Of a stretch of DNA of 64,000 nucleotides, positions 4,607 through 60,541 are shown in pieces. How positions within the stretch are numbered: position 1 is the stretch's first letter; each line of letters begins with the position of its first letter. Below the pieces are notes generated by a model, which was given only the letters and a program-made list of their open reading frames with translations, had not been told where the DNA came from and searched no databases. This DNA comes from an uncultured virus (IMG/VR IMGVR_UViG_3300002124_000007) (Duplodnaviria > Heunggongvirae > Uroviricota > Caudoviricetes), in the IMG/VR virus record IMGVR_UViG_3300002124_000007, positions 1 through 64,000 of that record; one strand, written 5' to 3'. A program made the translations under genes and the position numbers.

Positions 4607-5065
4607 TTAATTTCTCTGATGTGGGCAATATCCATAATGCCCATTAGATGAATTACAGTTATAACAAAGTATTCTATAAAAGTCTGGTTTATATTCTCTT
4701 ATAGCTCGTCTGTATGATGGCAATCCTCTGGCTTCTTTTTCTGTTTTTCCAAATCCATTCCTTCCGTGAATGTGGTCAAGAGTTAAAAATTCCAATATTG
4801 TTTCTCCACAACAAGCACATTTACCTCCATACATATCTACAAACAATTTTTTAATCTCTTTTTTCTTAGACTTTGCATATTGACTTTTTTGTGCAAGAAC
4901 TTTTTCTCTATTTTCTTTTACATATGATTTTTGATGCAAAGCTATTTTTGCGTAGTTTTTGATTCCATACTCATGATTATACTTCTGCACTTCTTCTTTC
5001 GTTAATACATTTTCTCTATACCATTTATCATAGGCCAGCTTTTCTTCATGATTCTTATAAGGCAT
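4607..5065 (-). CDS. HNH endonuclease, probably free-standing homing type
   Basis: YGGKCACCGE...LTLDHI...LCYNCN; basic helical N-terminus; lies between terS and terL. Confidence 0.85.
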   Translation of the reverse strand: MPYKNHEEKLAYDKWYRENVLTKEEVQKYNHEYGIKNYAKIALHQKSYVKENREKVLAQKSQYAKSKKKEIKKLFVDMYGGKCACCGETILEFLTLDHIHGRNGFGKTEKEARGLPSYRRAIREYKPDFYRILCYNCNSSNGHYGYCPHQRN

Positions 5066-5067
5066 CT

Positions 5068-5140
5068 CACACCTCCTAGTGTGTTTGGGGCAGAGCGATA
5101 TAGGAGTATCGCTTTTTCGGGCTTCCTACCCTAGCCCCAA
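5068..5140 (-). promoter_or_regulatory. Structured 5' leader of the HNH gene with anti-SD loop
   Basis: Minus strand: TTGGGGC/GCCCCAA stem, AGCGATA-CTCCTA-TATCGCT hairpin, CACAC-TAGGAG-GTGTG SD hairpin; TATACT -10 at 5144-5149. Confidence 0.65.
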
Positions 5141-5153
5141 TTTAGTATAGCAT

Positions 5154-6046: not shown

Positions 6047-6409
6047 TTATAGCCATCCATTTTCTTTTAGAAATCGAATCCGCTTTGCGGCACTATTATG
6101 TTGCCAGGCAGAAGGCACTTTGACACGAATCATATCCAATTTCCATTCCCCATAGTTTGCATTTTCAACGTTCTGATTGACTATATTCCATGCGGCTTCT
6201 CGATTCTCTTTCATGGAAGCCCATCTCCACATAGCTTTCCAGATACCCATTTCCGTAGGTTCTTGGCCTGAAGAGGATTTCATACCCTCTAAAATTGCCC
6301 ACTCTGTCAAAAGGAGGATGGTTCTATTCTCCCCCATCTCGAAATATTTCCTGAATAGACGTTCTCCATCTAAATATTTTTCTCGTAAGTTAGGATTTCT
6401 ATTTGTCAT
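6047..6409 (-). CDS. Hypothetical protein, possibly DNA-binding
   Basis: First gene of the minus-strand packaging operon; TATAAT -10 at 6417-6422. Confidence 0.6.
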   Translation of the reverse strand: MTNRNPNLREKYLDGERLFRKYFEMGENRTILLLTEWAILEGMKSSSGQEPTEMGIWKAMWRWASMKENREAAWNIVNQNVENANYGEWKLDMIRVKVPSAWQHNSAAKRIRFLKENGWL

Positions 6410-6528
6410 ATGACTTATTATAGCACACTGTATATAAATTTACACATTAGAGTTTATTAATAAAAAAATCCCTGAACACCTTAATTAATATATTAACCTA
6501 TTTAAGTATTTAAGGATATTATAGACTC

Positions 6529-6548
6529 TACTTAATTTAAATTAAGTA
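6529..6548. repeat. Perfect 20-bp palindrome in AT-rich divergent intergenic region
   Basis: TACTTAATTTAAATTAAGTA is its own reverse complement. Confidence 0.9.
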
Positions 6549-6675
6549 TACAATTGGGTGAAATTTCTTGTCAATGGTAAATTGGAATGTTCTTAGATAA
6601 CTCTAATGTTGACCAATATTTGATTTTCTCATGATTCTCTAATGTCTGCGCTGTATATAAGTGATATAATTGTGA

Positions 6676-6927
6676 CACTTGAAGGTTTGGAAGCAATTTC
6701 AAATGCTAACTCGAAAATGATAGGAAGGGATTGTCCCTGTCTAAGTAGGTGTGTAAACAATGAGTGTGCTGAGGATGTTACCCTGAGTCCTGTGAAGCAC
6801 AAATATGGATGGCTGATACTTATGAGGCCGTTACACCCCTTCAAGCGTTTGGGACTTGGTAAGATCGTGGGCGACAACCCTTGACTGCTTGGTAAAGTAC
6901 GATGGTGATATCACACCACCAAGTCCC
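6676..6927 (+). ncRNA. Candidate structured ncRNA (two multi-stem domains)
   Basis: Begins ~7 nt after TATAAT (6665). Stems CTTGAAGG/CCTTCAAG, TTTGGAA-GCAA-TTTCAAA, GTGTAA/TTACAC, GGGACTTGGT/ACCAAGTCCC. Confidence 0.55.
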
Positions 6928-6978
6928 TTTACTTTCTGTAATGCAACTTTTACGCAAAAGTTCTGTCATGGAGATACA

Positions 6979-7128
6979 ATGAGTAATATTTCGATTTGGG
7001 CAGGCCTGTTTTCACTTATAGGGATGTTAGTTTCGATTTTCACACATCAAACATTAGGAACATCTGTTGTGCTTGGGATTTTTGGAGGGATTTTGCTAAT
7101 AGTCGGAATTGCAGGAGAGAAACCATGA
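6979..7128 (+). CDS. Small membrane protein
   Basis: GGAG SD; two hydrophobic helices; 49 aa. Confidence 0.6.
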   Translation: MSNISIWAGLFSLIGMLVSIFTHQTLGTSVVLGIFGGILLIVGIAGEKP

Positions 7129-7925
7129 CGTTAGCAGAGTTTTTTGATAAGCAGAGAGAGATTATCGAGGCGGCAGAAACACCATTTGCAAAACTCGCAA
7201 TTTTTGTCTTGCCAATTCTAGCCCCCATCGTCCCCGCATCTCTGACTGGATTGCACCTTTACAAGTTATTTTTGACTCTTTTTACTTTTACTTGGGCAGA
7301 TAAGTTGTCGGCCACTTTATCTATTCTAGTAGCTCTTGTACTTGAGATGTTGGGCTATGTAGGGGCTGTTTCTTTCATTCAGGCAATTTTTCGATGGGTC
7401 AAGACAGGAAATACTTTATATGCTCTGCCGTCCATTCTAAACGGACTCTCATATATTTTTTATCTTATTTTAATGTTTCTGGTCAACTATAAGTTGGGAG
7501 AATACTTCCAAACTCCCAATATCATAAATACCATTGTGGGGCTTCTTTCTTTTGTAACAGTTCCTACTGGACTGTTGGCTGCTAATTATCTTTCGCAAAA
7601 GGAATTGAAAGAAGAAGATTGGAAGGAAAGATCGGAACGAAAAGACGAAAGATTGAAAAAATATGCCATCAAGCATGGGAAAGTTTCAGAAAGTTCAGAG
7701 AGAATTTACCAAAAAGTTACCGAAAGTTCTGAAAATCTTTCCGAAAATTTACCGAAAGATTGGAGAAAGTTGCGTCCGATGTTACAACTTTCCGAAGTAA
7801 AGAGTTTGGCTAGTCTTTCTGCGGAAGGAATCAAGAAAGTTTCCAAAAAGTATAATGTAGATGAGCGTACTGTGATTAATTGGAGAATTTACGCTCGTAG
7901 AGAATTAGGAGGAAGTTATGAATAA
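7125..7925 (+). CDS. Multi-pass membrane protein with C-terminal HTH (DUF2637/Spd-like architecture)
   Basis: ATG at 7125 after GGAG; 4-5 TM segments, charged linker, HTH-like KKVSKKYNVDERTVINWR. Confidence 0.65.
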   Translation: MTLAEFFDKQREIIEAAETPFAKLAIFVLPILAPIVPASLTGLHLYKLFLTLFTFTWADKLSATLSILVALVLEMLGYVGAVSFIQAIFRWVKTGNTLYALPSILNGLSYIFYLILMFLVNYKLGEYFQTPNIINTIVGLLSFVTVPTGLLAANYLSQKELKEEDWKERSERKDERLKKYAIKHGKVSESSERIYQKVTESSENLSENLPKDWRKLRPMLQLSEVKSLASLSAEGIKKVSKKYNVDERTVINWRIYARRELGGSYE

Positions 7926-12653: not shown

Positions 12654-12745
12654 GCTTATATAGTGTCACAGAGTAAGGGAGCATATGCTCCCTGTAATGT
12701 GCAGTACGGTTACAAGCCCGTACCACTAATATAAGGAGATATAAC

Positions 12746-46742: not shown

Positions 46743-47588
46743 TTACCAGAAGTCGCCCGATGTCCAAGCCATAAGACCTGTTGCCGCCCACTTGGATTGA
46801 AAGATCATTTTGTTGTGCTGAAGGGGAAACGGTCTGCGCTTCTTCTCTGCCGTTCCACCAACATAATGATATCCTGTGGCATGAGTATTTACATAGTTTC
46901 TAAGTCCTGCCGCACGAACCTTGAAGCACAAGTCCACATCTTCCCATGTCCCCAAACCATAGACAGGATCAAAACCCTGCAACTTATTGAATAGATTTCT
47001 GCGAATAGTCAAGCAAGCTCCGGTAATCGCAATCACATCTCGATTGATACAGGTTCTTGGATTCTCTGGACTCCATCCCACTAAAGGATGTTCTGCATCA
47101 CCACGAATATTTAGAGCCATGCCCACGTGCTGAACCTTACCCGCTGGACGAATAGGTGACGTGGAATCTGGTGGGAAGATCAGCTTGATTCCTACTGTCC
47201 CTACCGTTTCATCTTTGAATGTATCTACCACCTTTTGAATTGTGCCTTCGTGAATCTCAACATCATCATTCAAAAACATAATGAGGGGCGCAGACCCCAT
47301 TCTTGCTCCTTCATTATTTGATTGTGAAAATCCCAATTCTTGCTTGAAGTGCTTGACTTGCAAGGATAATACAGAACTTCCTTCGCGCTTGAAAAACAAT
47401 TCACTGTTGTCTCGATATTCTTCGGCGGGAGATGCATTGTCCATAATATAAATAGAAAGTGGAACGCTTTCTGCTTCTCGATACAAAGCATCAAGACACT
47501 TGGAGAGCATATCAAATCTGCCGCCAGTAACGATAACTACATCTAACACAGATTTTTGGCTACTCTGATGCTTCTGTTTTCGGCTCAT
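46743..47588 (-). CDS. Glycosyltransferase family 2
   Basis: DNAS, GFSQSNN, FLNDD, TGACL, EDVDLC. Confidence 0.92.
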   Translation of the reverse strand: MSRKQKHQSSQKSVLDVVIVTGGRFDMLSKCLDALYREAESVPLSIYIMDNASPAEEYRDNSELFFKREGSSVLSLQVKHFKQELGFSQSNNEGARMGSAPLIMFLNDDVEIHEGTIQKVVDTFKDETVGTVGIKLIFPPDSTSPIRPAGKVQHVGMALNIRGDAEHPLVGWSPENPRTCINRDVIAITGACLTIRRNLFNKLQGFDPVYGLGTWEDVDLCFKVRAAGLRNYVNTHATGYHYVGGTAEKKRRPFPLQHNKMIFQSKWAATGLMAWTSGDFW

Positions 47589-48735
47589 CTTTTGTTATCT
47601 CCACAATTTTATCGTGCAACTGTTTGGCAGGAATATCCCATGTGCGCTTGGATACATAATCATATGCATTGTCTATAATTCGTGTGTGTGTCGTAGATAG
47701 ATTTTCTTTGCTCGATAAGGCCCATTGCATGTCTCTTAGTGTAGATGCGGTTTCAGAACGATTAAGCATATCCCGCTTAGAATTGCCCCACACATCTGTA
47801 AAAGTATATTCAGAATTAATGAGCCATCCTCTATGCTCAGACAACAACTCATGCATTGCCCCTGTATCAGTTGCCACAACAGGAATTCTCATGCACATAG
47901 CGTCCAGTACAGGAAGCCCTAAGCCTTCTGCTTTAGACGGTTGCAAATACACATCAGCAATTGCATATAAAGCCCACAAATCTTTCTGTGGCATCCCTCG
48001 CTCATATGGAGTATATTCTTGATTGATCCCTAACTTTGTGGCAAGATCACGGAGCTTGAAACCATACGGATTTTGCTCACGAGTAACAATAACATATTTG
48101 ATAGGGCGAGTGATTTCCTTTTTCAGTTTGGAAATAGCATCCATCCCCGCCCACAAATTTTTACGCTCCTGATTATCAGCAACGGTTAGTACAACAAAAG
48201 CATCCTGCGGAATTCCTAATCCGTCTCGAAATCTTTTCTTTTCTTCGGACGTAGCCGGATGCCATGACACCGTGTCAACGCCTATCTGAAGATGTTCTGC
48301 CTTGGTCACACCTGCCAGATGAGCCTCATCTGTTCCCAACTGTGAAATAAAGAATACACCATCCATATTGATAAGGGGTGCTGCCCAAGTCATACAGAGC
48401 GGCCCATTCTCAAGAGGAGTGATAGCAATATATTTCTTTCCAAATTTAGCAAACGTCTCATATAGACGAGATTGAATAGGTAAATCCATTCCCACAATCA
48501 GCGCATCAGGATTCCAAAGTTGAATAAGATTAGTGGCTATGACCGAGGCTTCTTCGATTGTTGCAGTAGGAATAACCGAGAAAGGATAGTTATGCTCCTC
48601 CCCTTGATACATAAATCCGATTAATTTAGTTTCATAATCATCTATTTTCTGTAGTTCCGTAAGTAGAGGAGCCATGATATGTTTATACCCACTACCTACA
48701 GAATCAAAATCAGTAATAACTAATATCTTTTTCAC
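47560..48735 (-). CDS. Glycosyltransferase family 4 (GT-B)
   Basis: NQERKN, PSKAEGLGLPVLDAM; probable GTG start at 48735. Confidence 0.9.
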   Translation of the reverse strand: MKKILVITDFDSVGSGYKHIMAPLLTELQKIDDYETKLIGFMYQGEEHNYPFSVIPTATIEEASVIATNLIQLWNPDALIVGMDLPIQSRLYETFAKFGKKYIAITPLENGPLCMTWAAPLINMDGVFFISQLGTDEAHLAGVTKAEHLQIGVDTVSWHPATSEEKKRFRDGLGIPQDAFVVLTVADNQERKNLWAGMDAISKLKKEITRPIKYVIVTREQNPYGFKLRDLATKLGINQEYTPYERGMPQKDLWALYAIADVYLQPSKAEGLGLPVLDAMCMRIPVVATDTGAMHELLSEHRGWLINSEYTFTDVWGNSKRDMLNRSETASTLRDMQWALSSKENLSTTHTRIIDNAYDYVSKRTWDIPAKQLHDKIVEITKDEPKTEASE

Positions 48736-49769
48736 GAGAAGACTTTCTCCTCCCAAGTATTCAGAATAGTCTCTACACTAAATCGTTTCTTGGCAACCTC
48801 ACGCACCCATTCTTGTTTTTGTACCAATTTTGGGTCGGTCAATAACTCTATAGCGTTCTTTACAAATATGTCCTGCCATCTTGGGTCTTGAGCATTGCCA
48901 TGAAGCACTCTCCCCATATTTGTAGTCTTTAAGGCTCCTGCATCCGTTGAGATTGGAAACACACCCGCTACCTGACTTTCTGCCACAGAGATACAAAACT
49001 GCTCATCAAAAATACATGGGTAAAGATGAATATCAGCTTCTTGTTGAATTTTTACTAGTTCACTTCTCTTGATAGCTCCGTGATAAATCACATTTGGATG
49101 GTGAGCATAAGATAATTTGAAATGCCGAATTTGTTCTTCTGTACACCAGTCAGCCCATAATCTCCAATCCGATGTAATGACAAGAGATGCTTCTGGAACT
49201 TCAACATGAATACGTGGCCATGCCGCATGAAGCTCCATTACTCCCCTATCAGGGATAGATGTAAAGATGCACCGCTTAGGGATTTTTTGTACAGATTCCG
49301 AATACTCCCATGTGCGTACTGGCAAATCAATCGCAATTCCATCTGTGATACCATACATCTCTTTAAAATAATTGGCGTGATGCGAGGATATATTCACTAC
49401 CTTTTCTACATGACCGCGAAACTCTTTGAAGTCATCTACTGTATAACTATCACATGACCACCAAATTTTCTTGCCATTAGCTCCATCTATTCTTCTATTG
49501 GGAGAGCGAAAGACAATCAATATATCTCTTTCATCTGATGGATTGAATTCTCCAAGCGTCTTTTGTTTGAAAGAAGATGCCCCGCCTTCCTTGGGATCAT
49601 TATACAATGTGACATCGTTACCGTAATACTGCCACGCTCCACACATCGTCAGCAAGGCAAGCTCCGCCCCACCTACTCCCATGCGCCCATCTTCACCACG
49701 CATAGTTTTTTCTGTTACCCCTAATGGCGAACCGTCGTTACATAGAACGTGAATAATTCTTCCTGTCAT
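48732..49769 (-). CDS. Glycosyltransferase family 4-like
   Basis: GGAE, SIPDRG, YP..FDEQFCISVAESQ. Confidence 0.88.
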   Translation of the reverse strand: MTGRIIHVLCNDGSPLGVTEKTMRGEDGRMGVGGAELALLTMCGAWQYYGNDVTLYNDPKEGGASSFKQKTLGEFNPSDERDILIVFRSPNRRIDGANGKKIWWSCDSYTVDDFKEFRGHVEKVVNISSHHANYFKEMYGITDGIAIDLPVRTWEYSESVQKIPKRCIFTSIPDRGVMELHAAWPRIHVEVPEASLVITSDWRLWADWCTEEQIRHFKLSYAHHPNVIYHGAIKRSELVKIQQEADIHLYPCIFDEQFCISVAESQVAGVFPISTDAGALKTTNMGRVLHGNAQDPRWQDIFVKNAIELLTDPKLVQKQEWVREVAKKRFSVETILNTWEEKVFS

Positions 49770-49966
49770 TCTACAATCTTTCTTCTAATAATAACCTGAA
49801 GCGTAATCCCCTCGGTCAATTCTTTTTCATCTCTTGATAAAGGAAGTTTATATATTTCATCCAAAGCTCGCTTTAGGTCATCTAGATTATCTATATAATT
49901 AGTTCCCAAGGCAACTGTATCCCTTTTCTCGTTTAGACTATAAATTGAATAATTCCAATATCTCAT
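49766..49966 (-). CDS. Hypothetical protein
   Basis: Coupled at both ends. Confidence 0.55.
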   Translation of the reverse strand: MRYWNYSIYSLNEKRDTVALGTNYIDNLDDLKRALDEIYKLPLSRDEKELTEGITLQVIIRRKIVE

Positions 49967-51213
49967 TTTGATATTCCTTCTTCTTCTAATTCTTTATTGA
50001 GTTTGTGCCAAAAGTCATCAATCTCCTGCACCGAGACTTTTGATGTGGAGACAAATGAATGGTTCATATCATTCTTGCCCATATAGAACCAATCATCTGA
50101 AACATTATGCTCTATTCTAATATCGTAATTTTCTGGATGATTCCCCAAGGGTGTTCCAGGGAACGGTATAAGTCTTCCAACTTGCACTCTATCAGGTCTA
50201 TACTCAAGTATCCACTTCCTAGTTTCTTGCATGGTAGCCAACGATTCCCCTGGGAGTCCGAGTATAAAGGATGTTTTACACCGTATCCCAAGTTCTTTGC
50301 ACCACCTAACAATATTCGTATCCTGTTCAATCGTAGTCTTTTTGGTAATATTGTTCTTGATTTCGTTAGAAGCACTCTCCACTCCAACAAAAATTTCAAC
50401 CAATCCGCCATCTCTTAGTTCTTTAAGATAGTCATATCCGCCCTGATTGTTGATGATATCACTCCGCAGGAAGCATCGCCAGATCATATTATATTTTCTA
50501 TGTAGCTTCATTAATTCCAGCGTACGTTTTTTGTACAATGGAAGGATGTCATCGTAGTACGCAAGAGCCTGATAGCCTAAAGATTGTGCTTCTTTGATTT
50601 GATACTCCACTACATCCAAAGGTTCATAACGTGTAAGCCTGTCCCAAATGACGCCATGCCTTCCTGACTCACAAAATGCACATTCCAACGGACATCCACG
50701 AGAGGTGAACATAGTCGTGCAATCTATCTTTGTTCCATCTAAGTCTGTGAGTTGAGAAGAATACTTGCGTGACCATCTACGAACAGGAGGGATTACCCAA
50801 TCCAATGTACGAGAGATAGGAACAGAAAGATAAGGATTATCGTAATCTGGATTATGTAAAATTGTATGTATACTTTCTGGACTATCTGACTCTCCTCCTA
50901 CAATCAAATCGTAATCTAAGTCTTTACAACTATCAGGATTTGCCCATACAGATGCCCCACCAAGAATCAATCTAGCATCATATCCGCCTAAAGACTTAGC
51001 AAGAGATTTAATTTCTTTCATCTGTGGGCTGGTAGCAGAAATCCAAATCTCATCATATACGTTAGAAGGTAATTCATCTACGTTCAAATCAAAAAATTCT
51101 GTTGTATGTCCTAATGATTCTAAACGGGCCGCAAGATAAAAAAGTCCCAACGGCTGAAAAACCATAGGCATTTCAAGAAAAGTGCTTTTAGGCATTACCA
51201 AGGCAATGTTCAT
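49963..51213 (-). CDS. B12-binding radical SAM protein
   Basis: PLGLFYLAA N-domain, SRGCPLECAFC, GVES, FILGLPGE, PFPGT. Confidence 0.92.
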   Translation of the reverse strand: MNIALVMPKSTFLEMPMVFQPLGLFYLAARLESLGHTTEFFDLNVDELPSNVYDEIWISATSPQMKEIKSLAKSLGGYDARLILGGASVWANPDSCKDLDYDLIVGGESDSPESIHTILHNPDYDNPYLSVPISRTLDWVIPPVRRWSRKYSSQLTDLDGTKIDCTTMFTSRGCPLECAFCESGRHGVIWDRLTRYEPLDVVEYQIKEAQSLGYQALAYYDDILPLYKKRTLELMKLHRKYNMIWRCFLRSDIINNQGGYDYLKELRDGGLVEIFVGVESASNEIKNNITKKTTIEQDTNIVRWCKELGIRCKTSFILGLPGESLATMQETRKWILEYRPDRVQVGRLIPFPGTPLGNHPENYDIRIEHNVSDDWFYMGKNDMNHSFVSTSKVSVQEIDDFWHKLNKELEEEGISK

Positions 51214-51902
51214 TCTTGCGCCCAATCCGGTAAATCTCTCAACTCTCCATTGGTTTCCAACGGATGTAACATAGGAAGTCCAAGAGCATTATACCGTTTC
51301 AACTTGGCATATATCGTGTCTGGCCCATAAGATTTATGCAGAAGACAGTACGGAGGCTTTAATTTCATGGTCACAGACTCATCCGCCAATCCAAGAAGCG
51401 TCCCATGTCGTACTGACATGTCAGCATAAATATCTACTACATCAGGACGCCAAGCCCATAGAGAACGATAATCTTCATGGAAATCCCTATTCATATAAGG
51501 AAAGTATTTATCATCTCCCCATAGATATAGACGGAAGGTATTTATTTGATGATATTGAAACATGTGTGCATATTTAAATATCGCCCTAGCCTCTTGTCTT
51601 AGAGTAAATGTTGGCACATCATCCATATCGTCAAAGATAATCCAATCTGGCTTCAATTCTTTTGCGGCATCTAACACAAAATTCATGTGTGGCGCATCTG
51701 GATTCCAAGTCTGCCCATCTACTGTTTCTTGCTCTGTAAAGTGTAATAATTTCACTTTGGGATATTTCTTTAACATTTCCACAGAGTTGTCGGTTGAGCC
51801 TCCATCAGAGACTACAATCATATCTGCAAAATCATAGCCACGCATGAAGCGTTCAATGTTCTTCTCTTCATTGTAACAGCGTACAGCCACTACAATTTTC
51901 AT
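51210..51902 (-). CDS. Glycosyltransferase family 2
   Basis: YNEE, DGGSTD, DMDD. Confidence 0.85.
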   Translation of the reverse strand: MKIVVAVRCYNEEKNIERFMRGYDFADMIVVSDGGSTDNSVEMLKKYPKVKLLHFTEQETVDGQTWNPDAPHMNFVLDAAKELKPDWIIFDDMDDVPTFTLRQEARAIFKYAHMFQYHQINTFRLYLWGDDKYFPYMNRDFHEDYRSLWAWRPDVVDIYADMSVRHGTLLGLADESVTMKLKPPYCLLHKSYGPDTIYAKLKRYNALGLPMLHPLETNGELRDLPDWAQE

Positions 51903-52570
51903 ATAATGGGTTCCCATACTACAGGAAAGCCGTTTGCCTTCCTAGCTTCATATACTATTCCATCATACATTGCCAAAGAATTTTCGTCTTTCCACTTATC
52001 ATGGACATCATAAGGTCGTTTTCCATGAGCCGAATGTACATGCTCTACGATTGCCCTTTTGTCCCAATAAAACTTATTGAATAGCTTTGCTGTCTCATTA
52101 ATTTCAGCATCTACACACAAATACTCATAGACAGGCGGAGCAATCACTCCTCCCATATACTCTTTGCAATACCTTCTATCAAACATAAATTGTGTAGCAA
52201 CTTGTAGATTTCCGTCATAAGCCAAATCATTGAAGCCAACAACCCCACACCTGCCTAGCTTTTCTGCATGACTTTCTAATCCATACCTGAGCCAGTTCTC
52301 GTGGTATATCAAATCATCCATAGAGGGGTGAATCATATCACCTGTAGACAACTTCAAACCCTTATTCCAAAGAGATAAAACGTTCCTACGATAATCACTA
52401 TAATCTACAATACACCCATAATCTAAAGCAATTTGGCAAGATTCTAAATCATCATCTATCAACACAATGGTTTCTATATCATAGTCATGAGTAGTTGCAA
52501 CAAGACTATCCAGCATCGTTTTCAAAATTGTTGGACGTTTACAAGTGGGCAGAATAACAGAAACTTTCAT
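51899..52570 (-). CDS. Glycosyltransferase family 2
   Basis: VSVILPT, WNKG, MDDL, VEHVH. Confidence 0.85.
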   Translation of the reverse strand: MKVSVILPTCKRPTILKTMLDSLVATTHDYDIETIVLIDDDLESCQIALDYGCIVDYSDYRRNVLSLWNKGLKLSTGDMIHPSMDDLIYHENWLRYGLESHAEKLGRCGVVGFNDLAYDGNLQVATQFMFDRRYCKEYMGGVIAPPVYEYLCVDAEINETAKLFNKFYWDKRAIVEHVHSAHGKRPYDVHDKWKDENSLAMYDGIVYEARKANGFPVVWEPII

Positions 52571-53505
52571 CGTTCTAACAACTTCCTTTCAAAATTCTCA
52601 CGAACATCTTCTACAGCATGAGTTCTATAATACCAGTCTACTGTATTTTGCACTCCCTGATCGAATGAGAAGTTTCTTTCCCATCCCAAAGAATGTATTT
52701 TTGTAGTATCTGCAATTTTGATTGGGCCAATAGGCATATCGGAACGAAAAACAATTTTTTTAGGACTCCAACCTACATAATACCAGATGACATCTAAAGC
52801 ATCCATAGGAGTATATAGCTTTCCAGAGCCTATATCGACTTCTCCATCATCCATTTTCTCGGCGGCTAACAAGACTCCTTCAACCAAATCCTTTACATAA
52901 ATCCAGTCTATCTTTTGATTTCCATCTCCCCAAACTTCAAAGGGGTCTTGCTGGATAAAAGTCTTGGCGATCAGCGCACCAATGGCTCTATTCTCTTTCA
53001 TTCGAGGGCCATATACGGTATAGGGACGGACAGAAATTCCACTAAATGAATTTTCAATGCTGAAGTCCTTCAACATTTGCTCACCCAACGATTTTTCCAG
53101 TCCATACACACCATCAATTTCTCCAACAGCGCAAGCACTACTAAAAAATACAACCTTTTCAACCTGTTCACACGCCCTAAAAATAGTAGTATCCAGTTCC
53201 AAATTTCCCCACATTCTAGCATTATGATTTGTAAAATATCCCCTTCCCCCATTATCCGAGGCTAGATGAAATATGATATCAGACCCTTTCATAGCATGAA
53301 CACATGAACTAAAGTTCCTCAAATCTGCTTGATAAATATATGCATCTTTGGGAATGTTTTTGTATAAGCCTGCTGAAAAGTCATCTACTACAATGACACT
53401 TTTTGCGACATTCAATAAAGATTCTGTAAGATGAGAACCAATAAATCCTGCCCCTCCAAGGACACACACCTGCTTGGATTTCCAAAAATCGTTCAATTTA
53501 TTCAT
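52567..53505 (-). CDS. NAD-dependent nucleotide-sugar epimerase/dehydratase
   Basis: GGAGFIG, SSAC, YGLEK, VYGP, WGDG. Confidence 0.92.
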   Translation of the reverse strand: MNKLNDFWKSKQVCVLGGAGFIGSHLTESLLNVAKSVIVVDDFSAGLYKNIPKDAYIYQADLRNFSSCVHAMKGSDIIFHLASDNGGRGYFTNHNARMWGNLELDTTIFRACEQVEKVVFFSSACAVGEIDGVYGLEKSLGEQMLKDFSIENSFSGISVRPYTVYGPRMKENRAIGALIAKTFIQQDPFEVWGDGNQKIDWIYVKDLVEGVLLAAEKMDDGEVDIGSGKLYTPMDALDVIWYYVGWSPKKIVFRSDMPIGPIKIADTTKIHSLGWERNFSFDQGVQNTVDWYYRTHAVEDVRENFERKLLER

Positions 53506-54088
53506 ATCTTAATAAATTCAAAAAAGTATTTCTATTCTCATCTAAATCTTTGTATGTCATACTCTTTATCTGCTCGATTGAGTATGAAAGCAAATTGATT
53601 TGTGTATCTTTTCTGACAATGCCAATTCCACAATCTAAATCATGCACAGTAACATATAAATCAGGACGAGTTCTTAATGTAAGAATTGTTTTCCAAACTT
53701 CCCCACACCAGTCAGGAGATGCCTCTATGTATTTAGGAGTTGCCATCTCTGCTTTTGTGGGATTGCAATCATGAAGAAGAATAACTCCATTAGGGTTCAT
53801 CCAACGCAAACAATTTTCTACGTCTCTTAGAGATTGTTCATAAGTATGATCCCCATCTATAAAAGCCGCATCAAAATGAGATGGGTGATAGAAAAAATAA
53901 TCATCGCTAGACATCTCATAAAACGTATCATTCTCATGATTTACAGGAACCGGAAAGTGAACATCTACCCCAATTTTATTCTTGCAGAGGATTGGAAAGA
54001 ATGAATCTCCATTTCTAACCCCGATTTCAAGATAGGTTTCTGCATCCAAAAAATCAATAAACCATTGGATTACATCAACCCTATTCAT
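53498..54088 (-). CDS. Class I SAM methyltransferase (Methyltransf_24-like)
   Basis: YLEIGV, FIDGDH, HDCNP. Confidence 0.88.
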   Translation of the reverse strand: MNRVDVIQWFIDFLDAETYLEIGVRNGDSFFPILCKNKIGVDVHFPVPVNHENDTFYEMSSDDYFFYHPSHFDAAFIDGDHTYEQSLRDVENCLRWMNPNGVILLHDCNPTKAEMATPKYIEASPDWCGEVWKTILTLRTRPDLYVTVHDLDCGIGIVRKDTQINLLSYSIEQIKSMTYKDLDENRNTFLNLLRYE

Positions 54089-54285
54089 CCTATCATCTCT
54101 TTCATTAAGCCTTTCAAACTAGACAATTCAGCTTTCAATTCTATTTCAGGTAATTTTGCTAAATCAAATGGAAACATGTGTGGATTTGAATATGCCGCAA
54201 TCAGGGTTGCCAGGACATATAATGTTTCATTCATTTCATTCTCATCAAAAAGTTCCATTGCCATGCCTAAATTGAGGACAGACAA
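54085..54285 (-). CDS. Hypothetical protein
   Basis: Operon context. Confidence 0.45.
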   Translation of the reverse strand: MSVLNLGMAMELFDENEMNETLYVLATLIAAYSNPHMFPFDLAKLPEIELKAELSSLKGLMKEMIG

Positions 54286-54478
54286 ATTTCTTGTTGTTTT
54301 CAGTTAATCCACAGGCAATACATTGAGATGTAAACCATTCCTCTAACGTACCAAAATTGTAAGTATAAGAATGATCTTTCAATTCGTGTCCACATTCTGT
54401 ACAAGTAAGTTCTATCATTCTTGACACTGTGTCATTTACTTCTAGTCGTATAATCTTTCCATTTGCTTCTACTATCAT
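54245..54478 (-). CDS. Small zinc-finger protein
   Basis: CTECGH...H...CIAC...C. Confidence 0.55.
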   Translation of the reverse strand: MIVEANGKIIRLEVNDTVSRMIELTCTECGHELKDHSYTYNFGTLEEWFTSQCIACGLTENNKKFVCPQFRHGNGTF

Positions 54479-55077
54479 CTTTTCTTCTCGCTCATAATCC
54501 AATACTCGTTCGGACGAAGCTCATTATTTTCTTCATTCCACGTCAGAATATTTATGTGTTCCCACATAACATTCCAGCCAGAGACTTTTAAAAGGTTTTT
54601 GATTTGCTCCATATTCATAACACTATAATGGTTTTTACCTACATAGGTATACCACTCAGGGGCAGGCAAAACCAGCCCAAGCCAGTTTTTAGAAACTCTT
54701 GCCCATTCCATTAGGGTTAATAACGGCATTGGAGAATGTTCTAAAGAGTGCCTGGAAAATACCAAATCAAATGAATCATCCTTATAATCCAAGAAGTTGA
54801 AGTCCATCCTCTTGACGTTGCGTCCATGATTTTGTGCATCAATATAATCTTCCCCCATACATATCCCATCGTATTTTACATCCCATTTTTCAAACATTGG
54901 CTGGCAAAATCCTGTGCCACATCCTACATCAAGAACGGATTTACAGGTCGCCATTCTACTCATCCAATAATCAATTACTTGGCGTGCAAGCTCGGTATGG
55001 CCGCTATCATCCGGTTGAGGATAAATATCCCCATATAATTTTGTAACATATTGATCGTGATGTTTCCAATCTCTCAT
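54475..55077 (-). CDS. Class I SAM methyltransferase
   Basis: VLDVGCGTG, FDLVFSRHSLEH. Confidence 0.9.
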   Translation of the reverse strand: MRDWKHHDQYVTKLYGDIYPQPDDSGHTELARQVIDYWMSRMATCKSVLDVGCGTGFCQPMFEKWDVKYDGICMGEDYIDAQNHGRNVKRMDFNFLDYKDDSFDLVFSRHSLEHSPMPLLTLMEWARVSKNWLGLVLPAPEWYTYVGKNHYSVMNMEQIKNLLKVSGWNVMWEHINILTWNEENNELRPNEYWIMSEKKR

Positions 55078-55385
55078 TTCTCAAATACCAACTTTCTCAT
55101 GTCTTCAAGATGCTTTTGTGTTGCGGCCAATGCCCCTGCCGAGCCTGTACCTTCTGATGGTCGCAATCCGCAGTTCCATAGATCGTCCATCAAAGCTTGA
55201 GCATCAGAATAATCCAAAGTAAACGAAGGGTTTATATATTCTACAAAACTTTTTTCATCATAAGTTGTCATAATCAAATCAGAGACAAGTGCATATAGTC
55301 TTCCCTCCCTAACTTCTGCCAAATAAAATTGTATTGACCTATGCCAAGGAGATGATATCCTAGCTTCTGCTTTTATTACAGTCAT
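55074..55385 (-). CDS. Phage hypothetical protein
   Basis: AQALMDDLWNCGLRP...HLEDMRKL. Confidence 0.7.
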   Translation of the reverse strand: MTVIKAEARISSPWHRSIQFYLAEVREGRLYALVSDLIMTTYDEKSFVEYINPSFTLDYSDAQALMDDLWNCGLRPSEGTGSAGALAATQKHLEDMRKLVFEK

Positions 55386-55386
55386 T

Positions 55387-55620
55387 TTATTCTCCCAAAT
55401 AAAACTTAATTGGTAAATGCCCTATATCTAATTTTGTATGAGGAATTTTTTGTCCCTCTATATAAAAATTAAACCTAGCAGAGCCATCACCATCGACTTT
55501 CACCCTAAGTTCTCTACTTGCCCCCACCGCCCCAAGATATTGAATAGCGCCACATATCGTTACAAAGTCTTGCAAGTCAGTATCATCTGCCTCAATCCTC
55601 ATATCTATGTATTTTTTCAT
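55387..55620 (-). CDS. Hypothetical protein
   Basis: LGAVGASR...VDGDG. Confidence 0.6.
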   Translation of the reverse strand: MKKYIDMRIEADDTDLQDFVTICGAIQYLGAVGASRELRVKVDGDGSARFNFYIEGQKIPHTKLDIGHLPIKFYLGE

Positions 55621-56927
55621 TTCATTTTTCCTTCAATAAACTCATCAAATACAGAAAGCATGTAGGCAAGTCGTTCATCATCTATACTAGGATGTACACC
55701 AATCCAAAAAGAATAATTCATTACCACATCTGAATTTATCAAGGGCTGAAAAACCTTACATTGGATAGATGAATATGCGGGTTGTCTAAGAAGATTTCCA
55801 GCAAATACCAGACGTGTGCCAATCTTCCTGCTCTCCAAAAAGTCAATCAACTCTCGCCTCGTGAATGGCGCAGATTCTTTCACGGTAATCAGGAAGCCAA
55901 ACCATGACGGATTTGCGCCTTCAATATGCTGCATAAAGCGGAAATACTTTTTGTATTTATCTAATCCTTCGCGAAGAACTTGCCAATTATGTCTACGTCT
56001 TTCCACGAAAAAAGGCAACTTCTTCAATTGTGATACTAAAAGTGATGCCTGCATGTCAGTTGCCTTCAGATTATATCCGATACGGGAAAAAGTATATTTA
56101 TGGTCATAACCTTCTGGCAACTCACCTTCCTGCCAACAGAATCGTTTTCCACAAGTATTATCTTTTCCTGGCTCACACCAACAAGATTTTCCCCAATCTC
56201 TAAAACTTTGCAAAACCTTCTTCACCATAGGAGATTGGATTAGACACGCTCCCCCCTCCCCTGCCGTGATGTGATGAGCAGGGTAGAAACTGAGCGTACT
56301 AATATCACCAAAAGAGCCAAGTTGCTTACCACGAAGGCTACCCCCCAAACCGTCACAATTATCTTCGATAAGCCAGATTCCATATTCATTACAAATATCA
56401 CGTAATGTTTCTGCATCGAAAGGATTACCGAGAGGATGAGCAAGAACCACACCTTTAGTTCGTCCCTCCACAATTGCATTTTCAATTATCTCCATACTCG
56501 GATTGAGTGTATTTAGGTCTACGTCCACGAAAACGGGAACAAGCCCGTTTTGGATAATAGGATTGAGAGTTGTTGGAAATCCCACTCCCACTGTAATGAT
56601 TTCATCTCCAACATTTGCGCTTCGTGAGCCAAATGCCTTATCCGTAATTGTTGTGACAGCAAGTAAACTGGCAGAACTGCCACTATTAGTAAGCACAACA
56701 TTACGTATTGTATGTTTGTAAAAAGTACGCAAATCTTTTTCAAATGTGTGAGCATATTTTCCTTCTGCATACCATTGTCCCAAAGCGCACTCTACAAGAG
56801 ATGCTACATCATCACCGTCAAAATACTGTCCAGAGGATGTGATATAAGTTTCGCCTGGGATGAACTGTTTCTTTTTCTGACCATCAATGTTCTTTCTGAC
56901 TCGCTCTATGATTTGTGCTTTGTTCAT
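55617..56927 (-). CDS. rfbH: CDP-4-keto-6-deoxyglucose 3-dehydrase (E1)
   Basis: DegT fold with SFYPAHHIT (His in place of the PLP Lys) and Fe-S motif CWC...DNTC; PEGYDHKY. Confidence 0.9.
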   Translation of the reverse strand: MNKAQIIERVRKNIDGQKKKQFIPGETYITSSGQYFDGDDVASLVECALGQWYAEGKYAHTFEKDLRTFYKHTIRNVVLTNSGSSASLLAVTTITDKAFGSRSANVGDEIITVGVGFPTTLNPIIQNGLVPVFVDVDLNTLNPSMEIIENAIVEGRTKGVVLAHPLGNPFDAETLRDICNEYGIWLIEDNCDGLGGSLRGKQLGSFGDISTLSFYPAHHITAGEGGACLIQSPMVKKVLQSFRDWGKSCWCEPGKDNTCGKRFCWQEGELPEGYDHKYTFSRIGYNLKATDMQASLLVSQLKKLPFFVERRRHNWQVLREGLDKYKKYFRFMQHIEGANPSWFGFLITVKESAPFTRRELIDFLESRKIGTRLVFAGNLLRQPAYSSIQCKVFQPLINSDVVMNYSFWIGVHPSIDDERLAYMLSVFDEFIEGKMK

Positions 56928-57781
56928 CCGTTGAATTCACTGGCAAGAAACTTTACCAATCCTTGCTCAAATGGCGGCACAAACAATCCCAATTCCTTTA
57001 ACCCCGCACAATTCAGACATCCATTTTTAGGGCGGGGAGCTTTCTGCTGCATTTCTTCAGTCGTCTTAGGAATAATCAACTTTTGCAATCCAAACTGTGT
57101 GGCAATCTTTACAGCAAAATCATATTTAGATAAGCACGTATCGCCTGCCACATGGAATAATCCTTGATATTTATCTGCCAATCCAATAGATAATCTAGCA
57201 AGATCATTTGATAATATAGGATTCATAATTTGGTCAGTAGGAACAAATACTTTCTTTGCTTGAAAAATGGCAGAGATAACCTGCTTGGCAAAATTCTTTT
57301 TTAGCCTCTCTGTGCCATATACTCCCACTGTTCGTACAATCACATATTTGGCATCCGATGTCAGGATGGTTTTTTCGACTGTTTCTTTTTGCACACCATA
57401 TTTGTTTATAGGATGTGTCTCATCCTGTATTGTATAAGGCTCCTTCTTTGTCCCATCAAATACATAGGAAGATGAAAAATATACCAATTTGGCATTGAAT
57501 GATTCGCACAAACGTAATACAGTAATCGCACCCCTAACGTTCACTACATCTGTTCCGGCTGATTCTTCACACTTATCTACATGAGCAATTGCCGCTGGAA
57601 GATACACCACATCAGGGCGATCTTTGCTGAATACCTTGAAAAGAGTTTCATACTTTGTCAGGTCTGTATAACGCTCATTTGGATGTTTTGCTTCAACAGG
57701 TATGCCAAGGATAGCATCTGGAATTTGCCTTGCAAGGGCTGATCCCACTAAACCACGTGCGCCAATAATCAAGGATTTCAC
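56924..57781 (-). CDS. RmlD-like NDP-4-keto-sugar reductase
   Basis: GARGLVG, VDKCE, SSYVFDG, YGVQK, APRP. Confidence 0.88.
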   Translation of the reverse strand: MKSLIIGARGLVGSALARQIPDAILGIPVEAKHPNERYTDLTKYETLFKVFSKDRPDVVYLPAAIAHVDKCEESAGTDVVNVRGAITVLRLCESFNAKLVYFSSSYVFDGTKKEPYTIQDETHPINKYGVQKETVEKTILTSDAKYVIVRTVGVYGTERLKKNFAKQVISAIFQAKKVFVPTDQIMNPILSNDLARLSIGLADKYQGLFHVAGDTCLSKYDFAVKIATQFGLQKLIIPKTTEEMQQKAPRPKNGCLNCAGLKELGLFVPPFEQGLVKFLASEFNG

Positions 57782-57966
57782 TCAAAATTCTCCAACGTTT
57801 TCCAATGTGGATTATATCTATAAAAAATATTTGATAGATACTGCTTAACTATTTTTCCGTTCCTAATAAATCCAATGTGACTTTTAGAAATAACCACATC
57901 ATCCGCCCATACATACTCGGCCTCAGTTTCAGATGTCCATATGGTGTATTTATTCGTGGCTTCCAT
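57778..57966 (-). CDS. Hypothetical protein
   Basis: Operon context. Confidence 0.5.
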   Translation of the reverse strand: MEATNKYTIWTSETEAEYVWADDVVISKSHIGFIRNGKIVKQYLSNIFYRYNPHWKTLENFE

Positions 57967-58267
57967 CGGCATGTTTTCCATATTGAATTAGGTAATGACA
58001 AGAAATAACTTCATTCCCAATGAAAGCATTATATCTTTTGTATGCACCATAACCAACAATAATTCCAGGCGCACCGCAAGTACAAAATAATGTAGAACCT
58101 CGTGCATGACTCGCATCTCGAAAACAAAAATGCATAGAAGTTTGCAATACAGGAAACCATTGTTTGTATGACGGGAGGAAGATTTCTTTTTCCCGCTGAA
58201 CGGAGACACCATTCAAAGTCGTAGCATGGTTAGGGTCATTATGATTACGAATTATATTGTTTGGCAT
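57950..58267 (-). CDS. Hypothetical Cys/His-rich protein
   Basis: CTCG...C...H. Confidence 0.6.
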   Translation of the reverse strand: MPNNIIRNHNDPNHATTLNGVSVQREKEIFLPSYKQWFPVLQTSMHFCFRDASHARGSTLFCTCGAPGIIVGYGAYKRYNAFIGNEVISCHYLIQYGKHADGSHE

Positions 58268-58731
58268 TAGTCATACCATAGATAAGTAGCTGTATTCAAA
58301 AGGATTTGTTTCAACTGCGGATCAATCTTGAAACGTCCTGCATTGATTTCGATGGATTGAAAGATGTCGATGGGTTTTAGATTATGCCTCTCCCCTGCTG
58401 CCTTCCAATCACAAAGCATCTCGATTAGATCAACCAAGTTCATTGCATTGATTCCATCAGGAAAATATTCAGGATGATGACGGTTATTGGTGTAGTGGTG
58501 ATCGACTCCGACTTTCATCTTGGATATAGTCTCACGATACACAGGGGAGCCATATTCCATTCCATTTAGTAGGGGAGTATATTTGTCGTAGATTTCTTTT
58601 TCAGGAGCCTCTAATTTGCTCATATCGTGCAGAAGAGAACGTCGAAGCAAATCTTCCACTACCTTATAAATCTTCAAACGCACATTTTGGATATGGTCTA
58701 ATGTACCTTTCCAACTATCGTAATTCACCAA
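58267..58731 (-). CDS. DUF5662-like HD-superfamily protein
   Basis: H...HDMSK...HHY..NRHHPEY...EMLCDW. Confidence 0.8.
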   Translation of the reverse strand: MVNYDSWKGTLDHIQNVRLKIYKVVEDLLRRSLLHDMSKLEAPEKEIYDKYTPLLNGMEYGSPVYRETISKMKVGVDHHYTNNRHHPEYFPDGINAMNLVDLIEMLCDWKAAGERHNLKPIDIFQSIEINAGRFKIDPQLKQILLNTATYLWYD

Positions 58732-59200
58732 ATACCTCTTTATAATAACTTTCTAAATATTTCCAGAGCGCGTCTTCTCCAAAATCTACTAGCAATCTAA
58801 ATGCTCTATCTTTTGCTACTAACCCATCATCATCTGTATATTTATAACCATAAAAACAGGGGGAATTATCAAAAACATAAGATACTCCACTATCAAAAAA
58901 AGCATCATCTTCACTCATTCTGGTTAAGCTATAATAACAAACATCTGCTGGATACGGAGCATTAAAATGTCTAACCAAATAATCTTCCTTCCCCGAAATA
59001 ATATCTATCTTTATACGAGCAAATCTTCTATTTTCAACCTGCTCATTGTACCAATTTGTTAACAATTGAAACTCAACAATTCCTCTTTCTCCAAGCACCA
59101 AAAATCTTAATTCTAAACAATTAACTCCATAATTTTTCTTTGGGTCTGGATGAGTTCTATCATAAGCAGGAAAAAACTTTATTTCTCTTTTCATATACAA
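58715..59200 (-). CDS. Hypothetical protein
   Basis: 161-aa ORF in the operon. Confidence 0.65.
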   Translation of the reverse strand: MYMKREIKFFPAYDRTHPDPKKNYGVNCLELRFLVLGERGIVEFQLLTNWYNEQVENRRFARIKIDIISGKEDYLVRHFNAPYPADVCYYSLTRMSEDDAFFDSGVSYVFDNSPCFYGYKYTDDDGLVAKDRAFRLLVDFGEDALWKYLESYYKEVFGELR

Positions 59201-59208
59201 CCATTATA

Positions 59209-60138
59209 TCAGGAAATGAATCCACATTCTTTCAATATCATTGCGACACGGGCATCATAATCTTGACCTTGAACCAACTGGTAAGCTTCTTCTGCATTTG
59301 CTTCAGCCTTTTCAGGATTGTTCTTGGCCCACAACACAGCATCAATAGCTTCCTGCATGTTGTTAAATATATGATGATGATGTAAAGATTCGTGTTTCCA
59401 CCAGTCAGTGACATTATTTATTATAGGATAAAGTTTCATGGCAGGAAGTTCAAACGCTCGACAATTCAAATCGTCCATACTTGACCAATTCAACCCAATC
59501 CTACCCTTATTGTACAAGGCTCGTGCTTCATCGAACACAGGCCCATTCTCAAATATCACACTCACACCTCGCTTACGAAGATCGTTTACCCATTGCACAC
59601 GATTTTCATAAGGCATTCCTATCATAACAGCATCTACCATATCGTCTGGATTTGGAATATCTTTGGGATAAAAGTCATATTTACTATAAGCATACGGAAG
59701 GTAAATATCTCCATCCTTTGAATACACCGCCTGCATGTTGAAGAACTTATCGGAGTATTTGCGAGGAGTATCATAAAACTCATTCAGCACATGCGGGTCA
59801 GTTCCTACCGTCACAACCATTCCATCCGAAGGCTTATACTTGGCATGAAATCCTGCATCCACTTGGATAATCAAATCGGGCTTCCAGTCTCCTAACTGCC
59901 CTTTGATAAGCTCATAAGGATATTCATTTGTGCCGAGAGTCAGAGGAAGTGGAACGTCGGGCGGAATAGCATACTTTTCTGGAAGGTTCATACCTCCAAG
60001 CCAGGGAATCCAACTCCCTGTATAAATTCCCGCCACTTTCAAATCCACATCTTCCCGATGCTCCAAGGCCTTCTTGAAATAAGTAGCCATAGCAAGAGGG
60101 TATACAAGATATGTAAGTAAGACTTTTATTTTATTCAT
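59209..60138 (-). CDS. CgeB-like glycosyltransferase
   Basis: DPH, YLPYA, LNWS..DDLNCRAFE, YDARV. Confidence 0.82.
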   Translation of the reverse strand: MNKIKVLLTYLVYPLAMATYFKKALEHREDVDLKVAGIYTGSWIPWLGGMNLPEKYAIPPDVPLPLTLGTNEYPYELIKGQLGDWKPDLIIQVDAGFHAKYKPSDGMVVTVGTDPHVLNEFYDTPRKYSDKFFNMQAVYSKDGDIYLPYAYSKYDFYPKDIPNPDDMVDAVMIGMPYENRVQWVNDLRKRGVSVIFENGPVFDEARALYNKGRIGLNWSSMDDLNCRAFELPAMKLYPIINNVTDWWKHESLHHHHIFNNMQEAIDAVLWAKNNPEKAEANAEEAYQLVQGQDYDARVAMILKECGFIS

Positions 60139-60541
60139 AGCAACTCTGGTTTAGAATAGTATCAACAACTTCGCCTCGCAACATAATTACATCGCTTCTC
60201 AACAACTGCGGCAAAAACGGCATGAAGACATTGTGATAATATACAACGTCCACCTTTACGGCCTTCCCTTCACACAAAGAATTATCAGGATAAGAGATAA
60301 AAATCTCCACTTCGGGATTGCTCAGATCGATTGGTGAATGTGAAGAATTACGAACACGCTCCTCAATTGACACTGTGTCATAAGGATACATGCTTCCATA
60401 CAATGCGCCTTCTTGTGCGGCATCCTGAAGCTGAACATATTGAAAAAACATAATACCAAATTCAACTGCCCCACTTAGCAGAAACATCAACATAAGAAAA
60501 CTAATTCCTAACTCAACTAAACTTTGACCTTTATTTTTCAT
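60131..60541 (-). CDS. TadE-like minor pilin
   Basis: Real start ATG 60541: MKNKG|QSLVE prepilin motif, hydrophobic helix, AAQEGA. Confidence 0.85.
   Translation of the reverse strand: MKNKGQSLVELGISFLMLMFLLSGAVEFGIMFFQYVQLQDAAQEGALYGSMYPYDTVSIEERVRNSSHSPIDLSNPEVEIFISYPDNSLCEGKAVKVDVVYYHNVFMPFLPQLLRSDVIMLRGEVVDTILNQSCYE

What the first reader, a model, noticed from the sequence alone, without database searches (positions are those of the whole stretch)
6676..6962. Highly structured ~290-nt non-coding RNA candidate at the head of the plus-strand operon
Seen: starts where a TSS is expected after TATAAT(6665). Domain 1 (6678-6845) is closed by CUUGAAGG/CCUUCAAG and holds a GNRA hairpin (UUUGGAA-GCAA-UUUCAAA), AGGGA/UCCCU, and nested GUGUAA/UUACAC, GUGCU/AGCAC, AGGA/UCCU, GGCU/GGCC. 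Domain 2 (6851-6927) has a perfect 10-bp stem GGGACUUGGU/ACCAAGUCCC enclosing AUCGU/ACGAU, GGG/CCC, ACU/AGU, GGUG/CACC. A last hairpin AACUUUU/AAAAGUU precedes the SD. I do not recognise it as tRNA, tmRNA, SRP, RNase P or a riboswitch. Inference: one or two phage ncRNAs or a complex regulatory leader.
Basis: partly seen in the sequence, partly recalled or inferred. Interest (0 to 1): 0.7.

Follow-up and report, generated by a model that had tools for sequence, protein, structure and literature searches.

The report
Phage two-slot small-RNA cassette
A gene-free stretch of an uncultured soil phage encodes two small folded RNAs in a row; related phages keep the same outer frame but hold completely different RNAs inside it, some shaped like tRNA, and what these RNAs do is not yet known.

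Summary
The feature is real, but it is two modules rather than one ornate RNA. Module A (6678-6845) and module B (6851-6927) are each shut by a perfect stem. They start 7 nt after an extended -10 box and end in a U-rich tail.

Folding alone is weak for A (z about -1.5) and good for B (z -3.3 to -3.7). No Rfam family matches.

The main evidence is comparative. Five related phage contigs (four lineages) keep the same frame at this slot: promoter spacing, stem A, a 5-nt linker, stem B and the U-tail, with compensatory changes in both stems. The contents differ entirely (A 39-168 nt, B 77-151 nt) and none is homologous to the window's. One relative holds a tRNA-Ser look-alike in slot B. More distant kin have arrays of tRNAs and stem-closed RNAs here; others have nothing.

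Best reading: a dispensable cassette of small stable phage RNAs, like T4 RNAC/RNAD, whose cargo is exchanged inside a kept frame. A decoy role against host RNA-binding or RNA-cutting proteins is inferred, not shown. Expression is untested, and the internal folds of the window's own cargo are unverified.

The parts
6662..6670 (+). Extended -10 promoter box (TG-n-TATAAT), no clear -35
   Evidence: Sequence. A -10-like hexamer lies 7-8 nt before stem A in 6 of 6 framed loci. Not listed by the consensus scan, which needs a -35. The start site is inferred.
6678..6845 (+). Module A: 168-nt RNA shut by an 8-bp stem; interior unique to this phage
   Evidence: Closing stem kept in relatives with changes on both sides. 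Folding z about -1.5. No homologue of the interior.
6766..6800 (+). Kink-turn-like motif in module A (tandem GA pairs at 6771 and 6794, 3-nt bulge)
   Evidence: Pattern found in 2.1% of 2000 shuffles (0.85% with a 5-bp arm), post hoc. Flanking helices 0.66-0.94. The k-turn rules are recalled.
6811..6829 (+). K-loop-like hairpin in module A
   Evidence: Alone it occurs in 18% of shuffles; together with the k-turn in 0.25%. Stem 0.91-0.99.
6846..6850 (+). 5-nt linker ending in UUU; candidate cut site between the modules
   Evidence: Junction TCAA-NN-GTTTGG-R-ACTTGG kept in 6 of 6 framed loci. Cleavage is inferred.
6851..6927 (+). Module B: 77-nt multi-arm RNA shut by a 10-bp stem; interior unique to this phage
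   Evidence: z -3.3 and -3.7. 59 of 60 cells paired over the first 10 pairs in 6 loci, with changes on both sides at pairs 3 and 10.
6928..6937 (+). U-rich tail (7 U in 10 nt); candidate 3' end or leaky terminator
   Evidence: 5-8 U in 10 nt in all 6 framed loci. Not called a terminator by the scan, which allows only short loops.
6945..6962 (+). Weak A-U hairpin; probably not part of the cassette
   Evidence: Pair probability 0.47-0.63. Not formed in L014/L017 although the flank is homologous.
6970..7128 (+). Shine-Dalgarno and first gene of the plus-strand operon (49-aa hydrophobic peptide, ATG at 6979)
   Evidence: Similar 47-48-aa peptides follow the cassette in L014 and L017. No Pfam or PHROG family.
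6047..6409 (-). Divergent conserved 120-aa gene heading the HNH / terminase / portal operon; anchor used to find relatives
   Evidence: 57 homologues among 58 candidates. Sigma-70-like promoter at 6574-6545 on the minus strand. Terminase and portal matches.

Best explanation
The stretch is a dispensable two-slot cassette of small structured RNAs at the very start of the phage's plus-strand operon.

Shown by comparison: the frame (promoter spacing, stem A, UUU linker, stem B, U-tail) is conserved and covaries, while the contents of both slots are replaced between close relatives.

Inferred: host RNA polymerase starts at about 6677. Stem A shields the 5' end, a host nuclease cuts the single-stranded linker, and stem B plus the U-tail makes the 3' end by partial termination or trimming. 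This frees two stable RNAs (about 170 and 80 nt) while read-through serves the genes behind. Cargo is swapped by recombination between the kept frames or by internal replacement.

Most likely job (about 0.35 within this reading): protein-binding mimics or decoys that occupy host tRNA- or RNA-handling proteins, including defence nucleases. Module A would present k-turns to L7Ae-family proteins (recalled knowledge).
For: Of the 17 loci, L011 is the same phage, 5 keep the frame (L012, L013, L014, L017, L019; L014 and L017 are nearly identical), 3 hold other stem-closed modules (L024-L026), 2 have no cassette (L020, L021), 5 end before or at the slot, and 1 is unrelated.

Stem B pair 3 is G-C or A-U, and pair 10 is U-A, G-C or A-U. 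Stem A pair 1 is C-G, G-C or G-U, and pair 6 is A-U or G-C. The window's cargo scores at shuffle level against every relative's (z -0.7 to 0.8) while the flanks are homologous. The upstream flank groups window + L014/L017 against L012/L013/L019, but cargo B groups L012 + L014/L017 (z about 8).

Stable tetraloop or T-loop hairpins: 8 on the promoter strand, 2 on the other, 1.7 expected, over 10 modules. Slot-mates are tRNA-like: L019 slot B (tRNA model 22.4 bits, E 3.3, below cut-off), L024 (ARAGORN tRNA-Ser), L026 (34.1 bits) and L062 tRNA-Arg (73.2 bits). Other cargo families show double-sided changes: 7 of 38 pairs and 3 of 18 pairs, three sequences each.
Against: There is no expression evidence. 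No homologue exists for either of the window's interiors, so their folds are unverified. Module A folds no better than shuffles.

Covariation rests on five related lineages. Stem B has no G-U pair, and its one mismatch (A-C in L017) would be G-U on the opposite strand. In L014/L017 stem A is short and opens with a C-A mismatch. The window's modules have no T-loop or tRNA signal.

The decoy role is an analogy only. The split between flanks and cargo could also come from an ancestral cargo kept in two lineages, and the downstream flank of L012 also resembles that of L014/L017 (z about 5.5).
Confidence: 0.6

Rival explanations
1. A cis-acting leader only. Stem A protects the mRNA 5' end, stem B plus the U-tail tunes read-through into the operon, and the interiors are neutral filler or decaying tRNA-like relics.
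For: Only the frame is conserved. Stem A starts at the inferred +1, and a U-rich tail follows stem B in 6 of 6 loci. Module A has z about -1.5.
Against: Interiors are structured: z -2.0 to -4.4 for slot B, double-sided changes in two cargo families and strand-biased tetraloops and T-loops. A terminator needs no 57-131-nt interior. Relatives without the cassette run the same promoter straight into a gene.
Confidence: 0.24
2. Module A or B is an undescribed riboswitch or self-cleaving ribozyme that controls the operon or cuts the transcript.
For: It sits in a 5' leader. The k-turn-like motif resembles those of SAM-I, T-box and c-di-GMP-II RNAs (recalled). The phage carries a twister ribozyme elsewhere.
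Against: No Rfam match of this type down to E 10. The interiors are not conserved even in relatives with homologous flanks and first gene. No hairpin clearly covers the ribosome site.
Confidence: 0.07
3. The frames work as DNA: terminal inverted repeats of miniature mobile elements, or attC-like recombination sites with variable interiors.
For: Perfect inverted repeats with variable interiors. Folding scores are alike on both strands. Stem B has no G-U pair.
Against: There is one copy in the genome, always at the same slot right behind a promoter. Pfam found no integrase or transposase among the 76 ORFs scanned (not every ORF was scanned). Stem A has G-U pairs in three relatives, and the loops are RNA-type and on the transcribed strand.
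Confidence: 0.05
4. Chance stems in a spacer, or a small protein gene (ORF 6642-6884).
For: Whole-region z -1.49. The 80-aa ORF is open across module A.
Against: The frame is conserved and covaries in five other contigs. The ORF has no Pfam or PHROG match and no counterpart in relatives, where this interval varies by more than 100 nt.
Confidence: 0.04

Closest known systems
Phage T4 small RNAs RNAC and RNAD
   Same: Small non-coding phage RNAs of unknown role. T4's are transcribed from its tRNA region (PMC3014915, passage; PMC9697503, passages). Here the same slot holds tRNAs and tRNA look-alikes in relatives.
   Different: No sequence link was found (no such record among the phage matches). 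This genome has no tRNA gene. The RNAs head a protein operon, and a conserved frame with swapped contents is not mentioned in the passages I read.
PeSL cassettes of T4-type phages
   Same: Short conserved promoter-plus-stem elements that bound exchangeable, non-essential material (PMC2839356, abstract and outline).
   Different: PeSLs are multi-copy and shuffle protein genes between them. Here there is one site, and the exchanged material is RNA lying inside the stems.
Bacterial and phage Y RNAs (YrlA/YrlB)
   Same: RNAs closed by a long 5'-3' stem with a variable or tRNA-like interior, often two per locus (PMC4201824, parts 1-2 of 5). By eye, L013 slot A has T-arm, closed-stem and D-arm-like parts in YrlA order.
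   Different: No Ro60/TROVE gene in the genome, no tRNA-like domain in the window's modules, and no Rfam YrlA match for the window or L013.
Phage tRNAs that counter tRNA-cutting defences (PARIS, retrons)
   Same: Phage RNAs of a variable tRNA region act against host defence (PMC11464382, PMC10264068, PMC11555353; search listing and abstract starts only).
   Different: Those are functional tRNAs that replace cut ones. The window's modules cannot decode.

Membership tests
Any Rfam 15 family | Covariance-model score at the gathering cut-off | tested here: not met
   Whole window: only Twister-P5 and int-alpA, both elsewhere. 6300-7300 down to E 10: two chance-level hits, E 1.1 and 6.1.
T4 RNAC/RNAD-type small phage RNAs (a loose kind, not a defined family) | Lies in the phage's tRNA region | tested here: inconclusive
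   No tRNA in this genome, but the same slot holds tRNA or tRNA-like RNAs in L019, L024, L026 and L062.
T4 RNAC/RNAD-type small phage RNAs (a loose kind, not a defined family) | Accumulates as a discrete stable RNA during infection | not testable with these tools
   No RNA run was listed among the holders.
Y RNA (YrlA) | Ro60/TROVE gene within about 4 kb | tested here: not met
   No TROVE match in G000, a 92% complete record; controls rang in 2 of 14 genomes.
Y RNA (YrlA) | tRNA-like domain with T and D arms | tested here: not met
   No T-loop hairpin in the window's modules and no YrlA match.
tRNA / tmRNA | Cloverleaf with T-loop; tag frame | tested here: not met
   ARAGORN found 0 genes; RF00005 found 0 matches at E <= 1.
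K-turn riboswitches (SAM-I clan, T-box, c-di-GMP-II) | Conserved ligand-binding core in the family's order | tested here: not met
   No match down to E 10. Only an isolated k-turn-like pattern.
PeSL shuffling cassette | Multiple copies per genome | tested here: not met
   One match in the own genome.
PeSL shuffling cassette | Exchange of material between conserved bounds | tested here: inconclusive
   Cargo B does not follow the upstream flank. The recombination itself was not observed.

The most novel reading that the evidence does not exclude
The two stems are relic tRNA acceptor stems turned into general expression frames, into which this phage family loads a fast-changing library of RNA mimics (tRNA-like, permuted-tRNA-like, k-turn-bearing) as RNA-only counter-defence, made first on infection. 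Lead for the origin: in distant relative L062 this slot holds a tRNA-Arg whose 7-bp acceptor stem equals 6852-6858/6920-6926 of stem B, followed at once by a tRNA-like RNA whose closing stem resembles stem A. That is 1 of the 9 family tRNA hits printed, and it was noticed post hoc.
Probability: 0.2. Interest if true: 0.85.

Novelty: new variant of a known kind. Interest (0 to 1): 0.55.

Why it matters
The roles of T4 RNAC and RNAD are still called unknown in the passages read. Here close relatives give a natural swap series: same promoter, same frame, different RNA inside, or no cassette at all. That makes it possible to test whether the frame or the cargo matters. It also shows why covariation surveys can miss such RNAs, since only about 40 nt are alignable. 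If the cargo is a set of decoys, it would be an exchangeable RNA-only anti-defence module.

Tried and rejected
Homologues of the window's own cargo: none found.
- Cultured phages: one 27-nt chance match. Plasmids: none.
- 33 related virus records: 4 short matches of 14-19 nt. Family loci: nothing beyond the frame.
- Stem-B pattern in viral contigs: 6 hits, none homologous.
- Junction pattern: 16 hits, 0 of 16 with the second stem arm.
- K-turn pattern: 5 hits, none homologous beyond the pattern; the best-looking ones (L095/L096, L097) lie antisense to ORFs.
- L012 cargo against cultured phages: no match.

Expression: no RNA holder listed. Contigs of 4 of the 13 listed DNA runs showed no variants or joints, and only one run covered the cassette.

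Protein scans that added nothing: viral scans with the 120-aa gene, its alignment and the 207-aa gene. The one genome scan gave a weak Streptomyces match, so no host genome could serve as a centre for a wider search. The host is unknown; Chloroflexota is only a lead (Atlas row at 0.89). The Atlas search with the 120-aa protein gave no usable hit.

Resemblances seen by eye to SAM-I, TPP, FMN, hatchet, hairpin, hammerhead and c-di-GMP-II motifs (recalled) were dropped: wrong order or no Rfam support. A possible 5-bp loop-loop contact between modules and an 8-codon ORF at 6760 could not be tested without homologues. MAFFT misaligned slot A because of the length differences, so pairs were counted by anchoring.

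Literature: searches showed no paper on this element, judged from listings and abstract starts. The frame words were absent from 6 supplementary files of the Fremin phage RNA survey (PMC10690425), but 3 files, including two very large ones, could not be searched, so a listing there is not excluded.

Full report
Setting. The window is almost all of a 64.7-kb virus record with terminase, portal, DNA polymerase A, RecA and many sugar-modifying genes. The best-covered holders are soil metagenomes, some possibly the source, and the host is unknown. The finding lies in a divergent spacer. To the left a conserved 120-aa gene heads the packaging operon; to the right an extended -10 box at 6662-6670 faces an operon of small membrane proteins that starts at 6979.

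Checking the observation. The stems exist as described. The whole 287 nt fold only slightly better than shuffles (z -1.49; 16 of 200 as good). Module A scores about -1.5 and module B -3.3 to -3.7, with similar values on the opposite strand. Both closing stems and six inner helices have high pair probability. The GNRA hairpin, GUGUAA/UUACAC and AUCGU/ACGAU do not. Rfam has nothing here down to E 10, and ARAGORN finds nothing.

Relatives. An alignment of the 120-aa protein (53 sequences) retrieved 17 metagenome loci. One is the same phage. Five (L012, L013, L014, L017, L019) carry the same layout: a -10-like box, 7-8 nt, stem A, a 5-nt linker ending in UUU, stem B of 10-12 bp and a U-rich tail. 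L014 and L017 are nearly identical; the terminases of L012, L013 and L019 are 79-83% identical to the window's. Three more distant loci (L024-L026) carry 2-4 other stem-closed modules at the slot. Two have no cassette, five end before or at the slot, and one is unrelated. A further relative, L002, has the same kind of promoter followed directly by a gene.

The frame is conserved and the cargo is not. Over the first ten pairs of stem B, 59 of 60 cells pair; pair 3 is G-C or A-U and pair 10 is U-A, G-C or A-U. In stem A, pair 1 is C-G, G-C or G-U (C-A in L014/L017) and pair 6 is A-U or G-C. These are few, related sequences. Module lengths run from 39 to 168 nt (A) and 77 to 151 nt (B). The window's interiors align with no relative's above shuffle level, while the flanks do. 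The upstream flank groups the window with L014/L017, and L012 with L013/L019, yet cargo B is shared by L012 and L014/L017. Exchange, or repeated replacement of an ancestral cargo, would explain this.

What the cargo looks like. Stable tetraloop or T-loop hairpins number 8 on the promoter strand against 2 on the other and 1.7 expected, over ten modules (L017 left out as a near-duplicate). L019 slot B is a tRNA-Ser look-alike with a large insert (below the cut-off). L013 slot A has a T-loop hairpin. L024 and L026 hold tRNA-like units. Two cargo families show double-sided changes on three sequences each.

The wider family. A terminase alignment gave 47 viral loci; I screened the upstream DNA of 20 and read ten slots. 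L062 has an array of a tRNA-Arg, tRNA-like and stem-closed RNAs. L076, L080, L052 and, by eye, L049 have a single module. L047 and L060 have none, and three are unclear. tRNAs occur in 7 of 23 family records but not in this one. The window's module A has a k-turn-like and a k-loop-like motif (together in 0.25% of shuffles, post hoc). No homologue of either window interior was found, so their folds stay predictions.

Mechanism. Shown: a conserved, covarying two-stem frame at a fixed distance from a promoter; replaced interiors; absence in some relatives. Inferred: transcription from about 6677, protection of the 5' end by stem A, a cut in the UUU linker, and a 3' end at the U-tail, giving two small stable RNAs (0.6). 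Inferred further, and weaker: the RNAs act as mimics or decoys for host RNA-binding or tRNA-cutting proteins, because the slot turns over fast and its contents in relatives imitate tRNA. The main rival (0.24) is a purely cis role for the frame with neutral filler. Riboswitch or ribozyme, DNA element and chance are less likely, for the reasons listed under the rivals.

Comparison with what is known. It works like the small RNAs of phage tRNA regions, such as T4 RNAC and RNAD, whose role is stated as unknown (PMC3014915 and PMC9697503, passages). Its exchange between conserved bounds recalls PeSL cassettes (PMC2839356, abstract). It fails membership tests for Y RNA (PMC4201824, parts 1-2 of 5; no Ro60), tRNA, tmRNA and Rfam riboswitches. 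Unchecked notes from this scan describe similar arrays in other phages; I treat them as leads only, and they suggest the layout is not rare. The literature searches named under Tried and rejected did not show this element, but three supplementary files of the largest phage RNA survey could not be searched.

Verdict. A real non-coding feature and a new variant of a known but unexplained kind. The notable point is the wholesale swapping of RNA cargo inside a kept frame among close relatives. Interest 0.55.

Noticed in passing
window 12667-12721 (+): Type-P5 twister ribozyme above the Rfam cut-off (43 bits) in an intergenic gap, just before a ribosome-binding site.
   Followed up: partly
window 5072-5141 (-): int-alpA RNA motif (40.6 bits) directly ahead of an HNH/endonuclease VII gene (4607-5065) that sits between the small and large terminase genes. 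No match to this HNH gene was seen in L012, L013 or L019.
   Followed up: partly
L012-L017, L019-L021, L024-L026, upstream of the -10 box: A 13-bp palindrome of the type TGACAC-N-GTGTCA (up to 2 mismatches) in 12 of 14 relatives examined; the two misses are short contigs. It is not found in the window even with 3 mismatches. Candidate operator or packaging signal.
   Followed up: partly
window 6428-6437 and 6651-6660: A 10-nt direct repeat near both divergent promoters; similar TGTATA-type words precede the -10 box in relatives.
   Followed up: no
L024 886-946, L025 3702-3762, L026 2008-2070 (-): A conserved ~55-nt module: long closing stem, U-rich arms and a hairpin with a box-C-like AGUGAUGA loop; 3 of 18 pairs change on both sides; no Rfam match at the cut-off.
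   Followed up: partly
L012 3903-4053, L014 194-322, L017 337-465 (-): A shared slot-B cargo family with double-sided changes; no Rfam match and no cultured-phage match.
   Followed up: partly
L062 6420-7255 (-): An array of about six RNAs: tRNA-Arg(UCU), two tRNA-like RNAs with large inserts, and several stem-closed units including one of about 195 nt.
   Followed up: partly
L076 6931-7017, L078 2399-2485, L080 6950-7037 (-): Two interleaved 11-17-bp stems right behind the promoter and before the ribosome site: a pseudoknot or a two-state switch.
   Followed up: no
L013 4650-4723 (-): Slot A reads by eye like a circularly permuted tRNA (T arm, closed stem, D-like arm), in YrlA order; no Rfam YrlA match.
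   Followed up: partly
window 46743-62847 (-): A cluster of about 16 kb of glycosyltransferase, epimerase, aminotransferase, methyltransferase and radical-SAM genes, perhaps for modifying the virion or the DNA.
   Followed up: no
window 6757-6765 and 6976-6984: A 9-nt repeat: the sequence round the first gene's start codon recurs inside module A, behind a weak ribosome-site-like word, opening an 8-codon frame.
   Followed up: no
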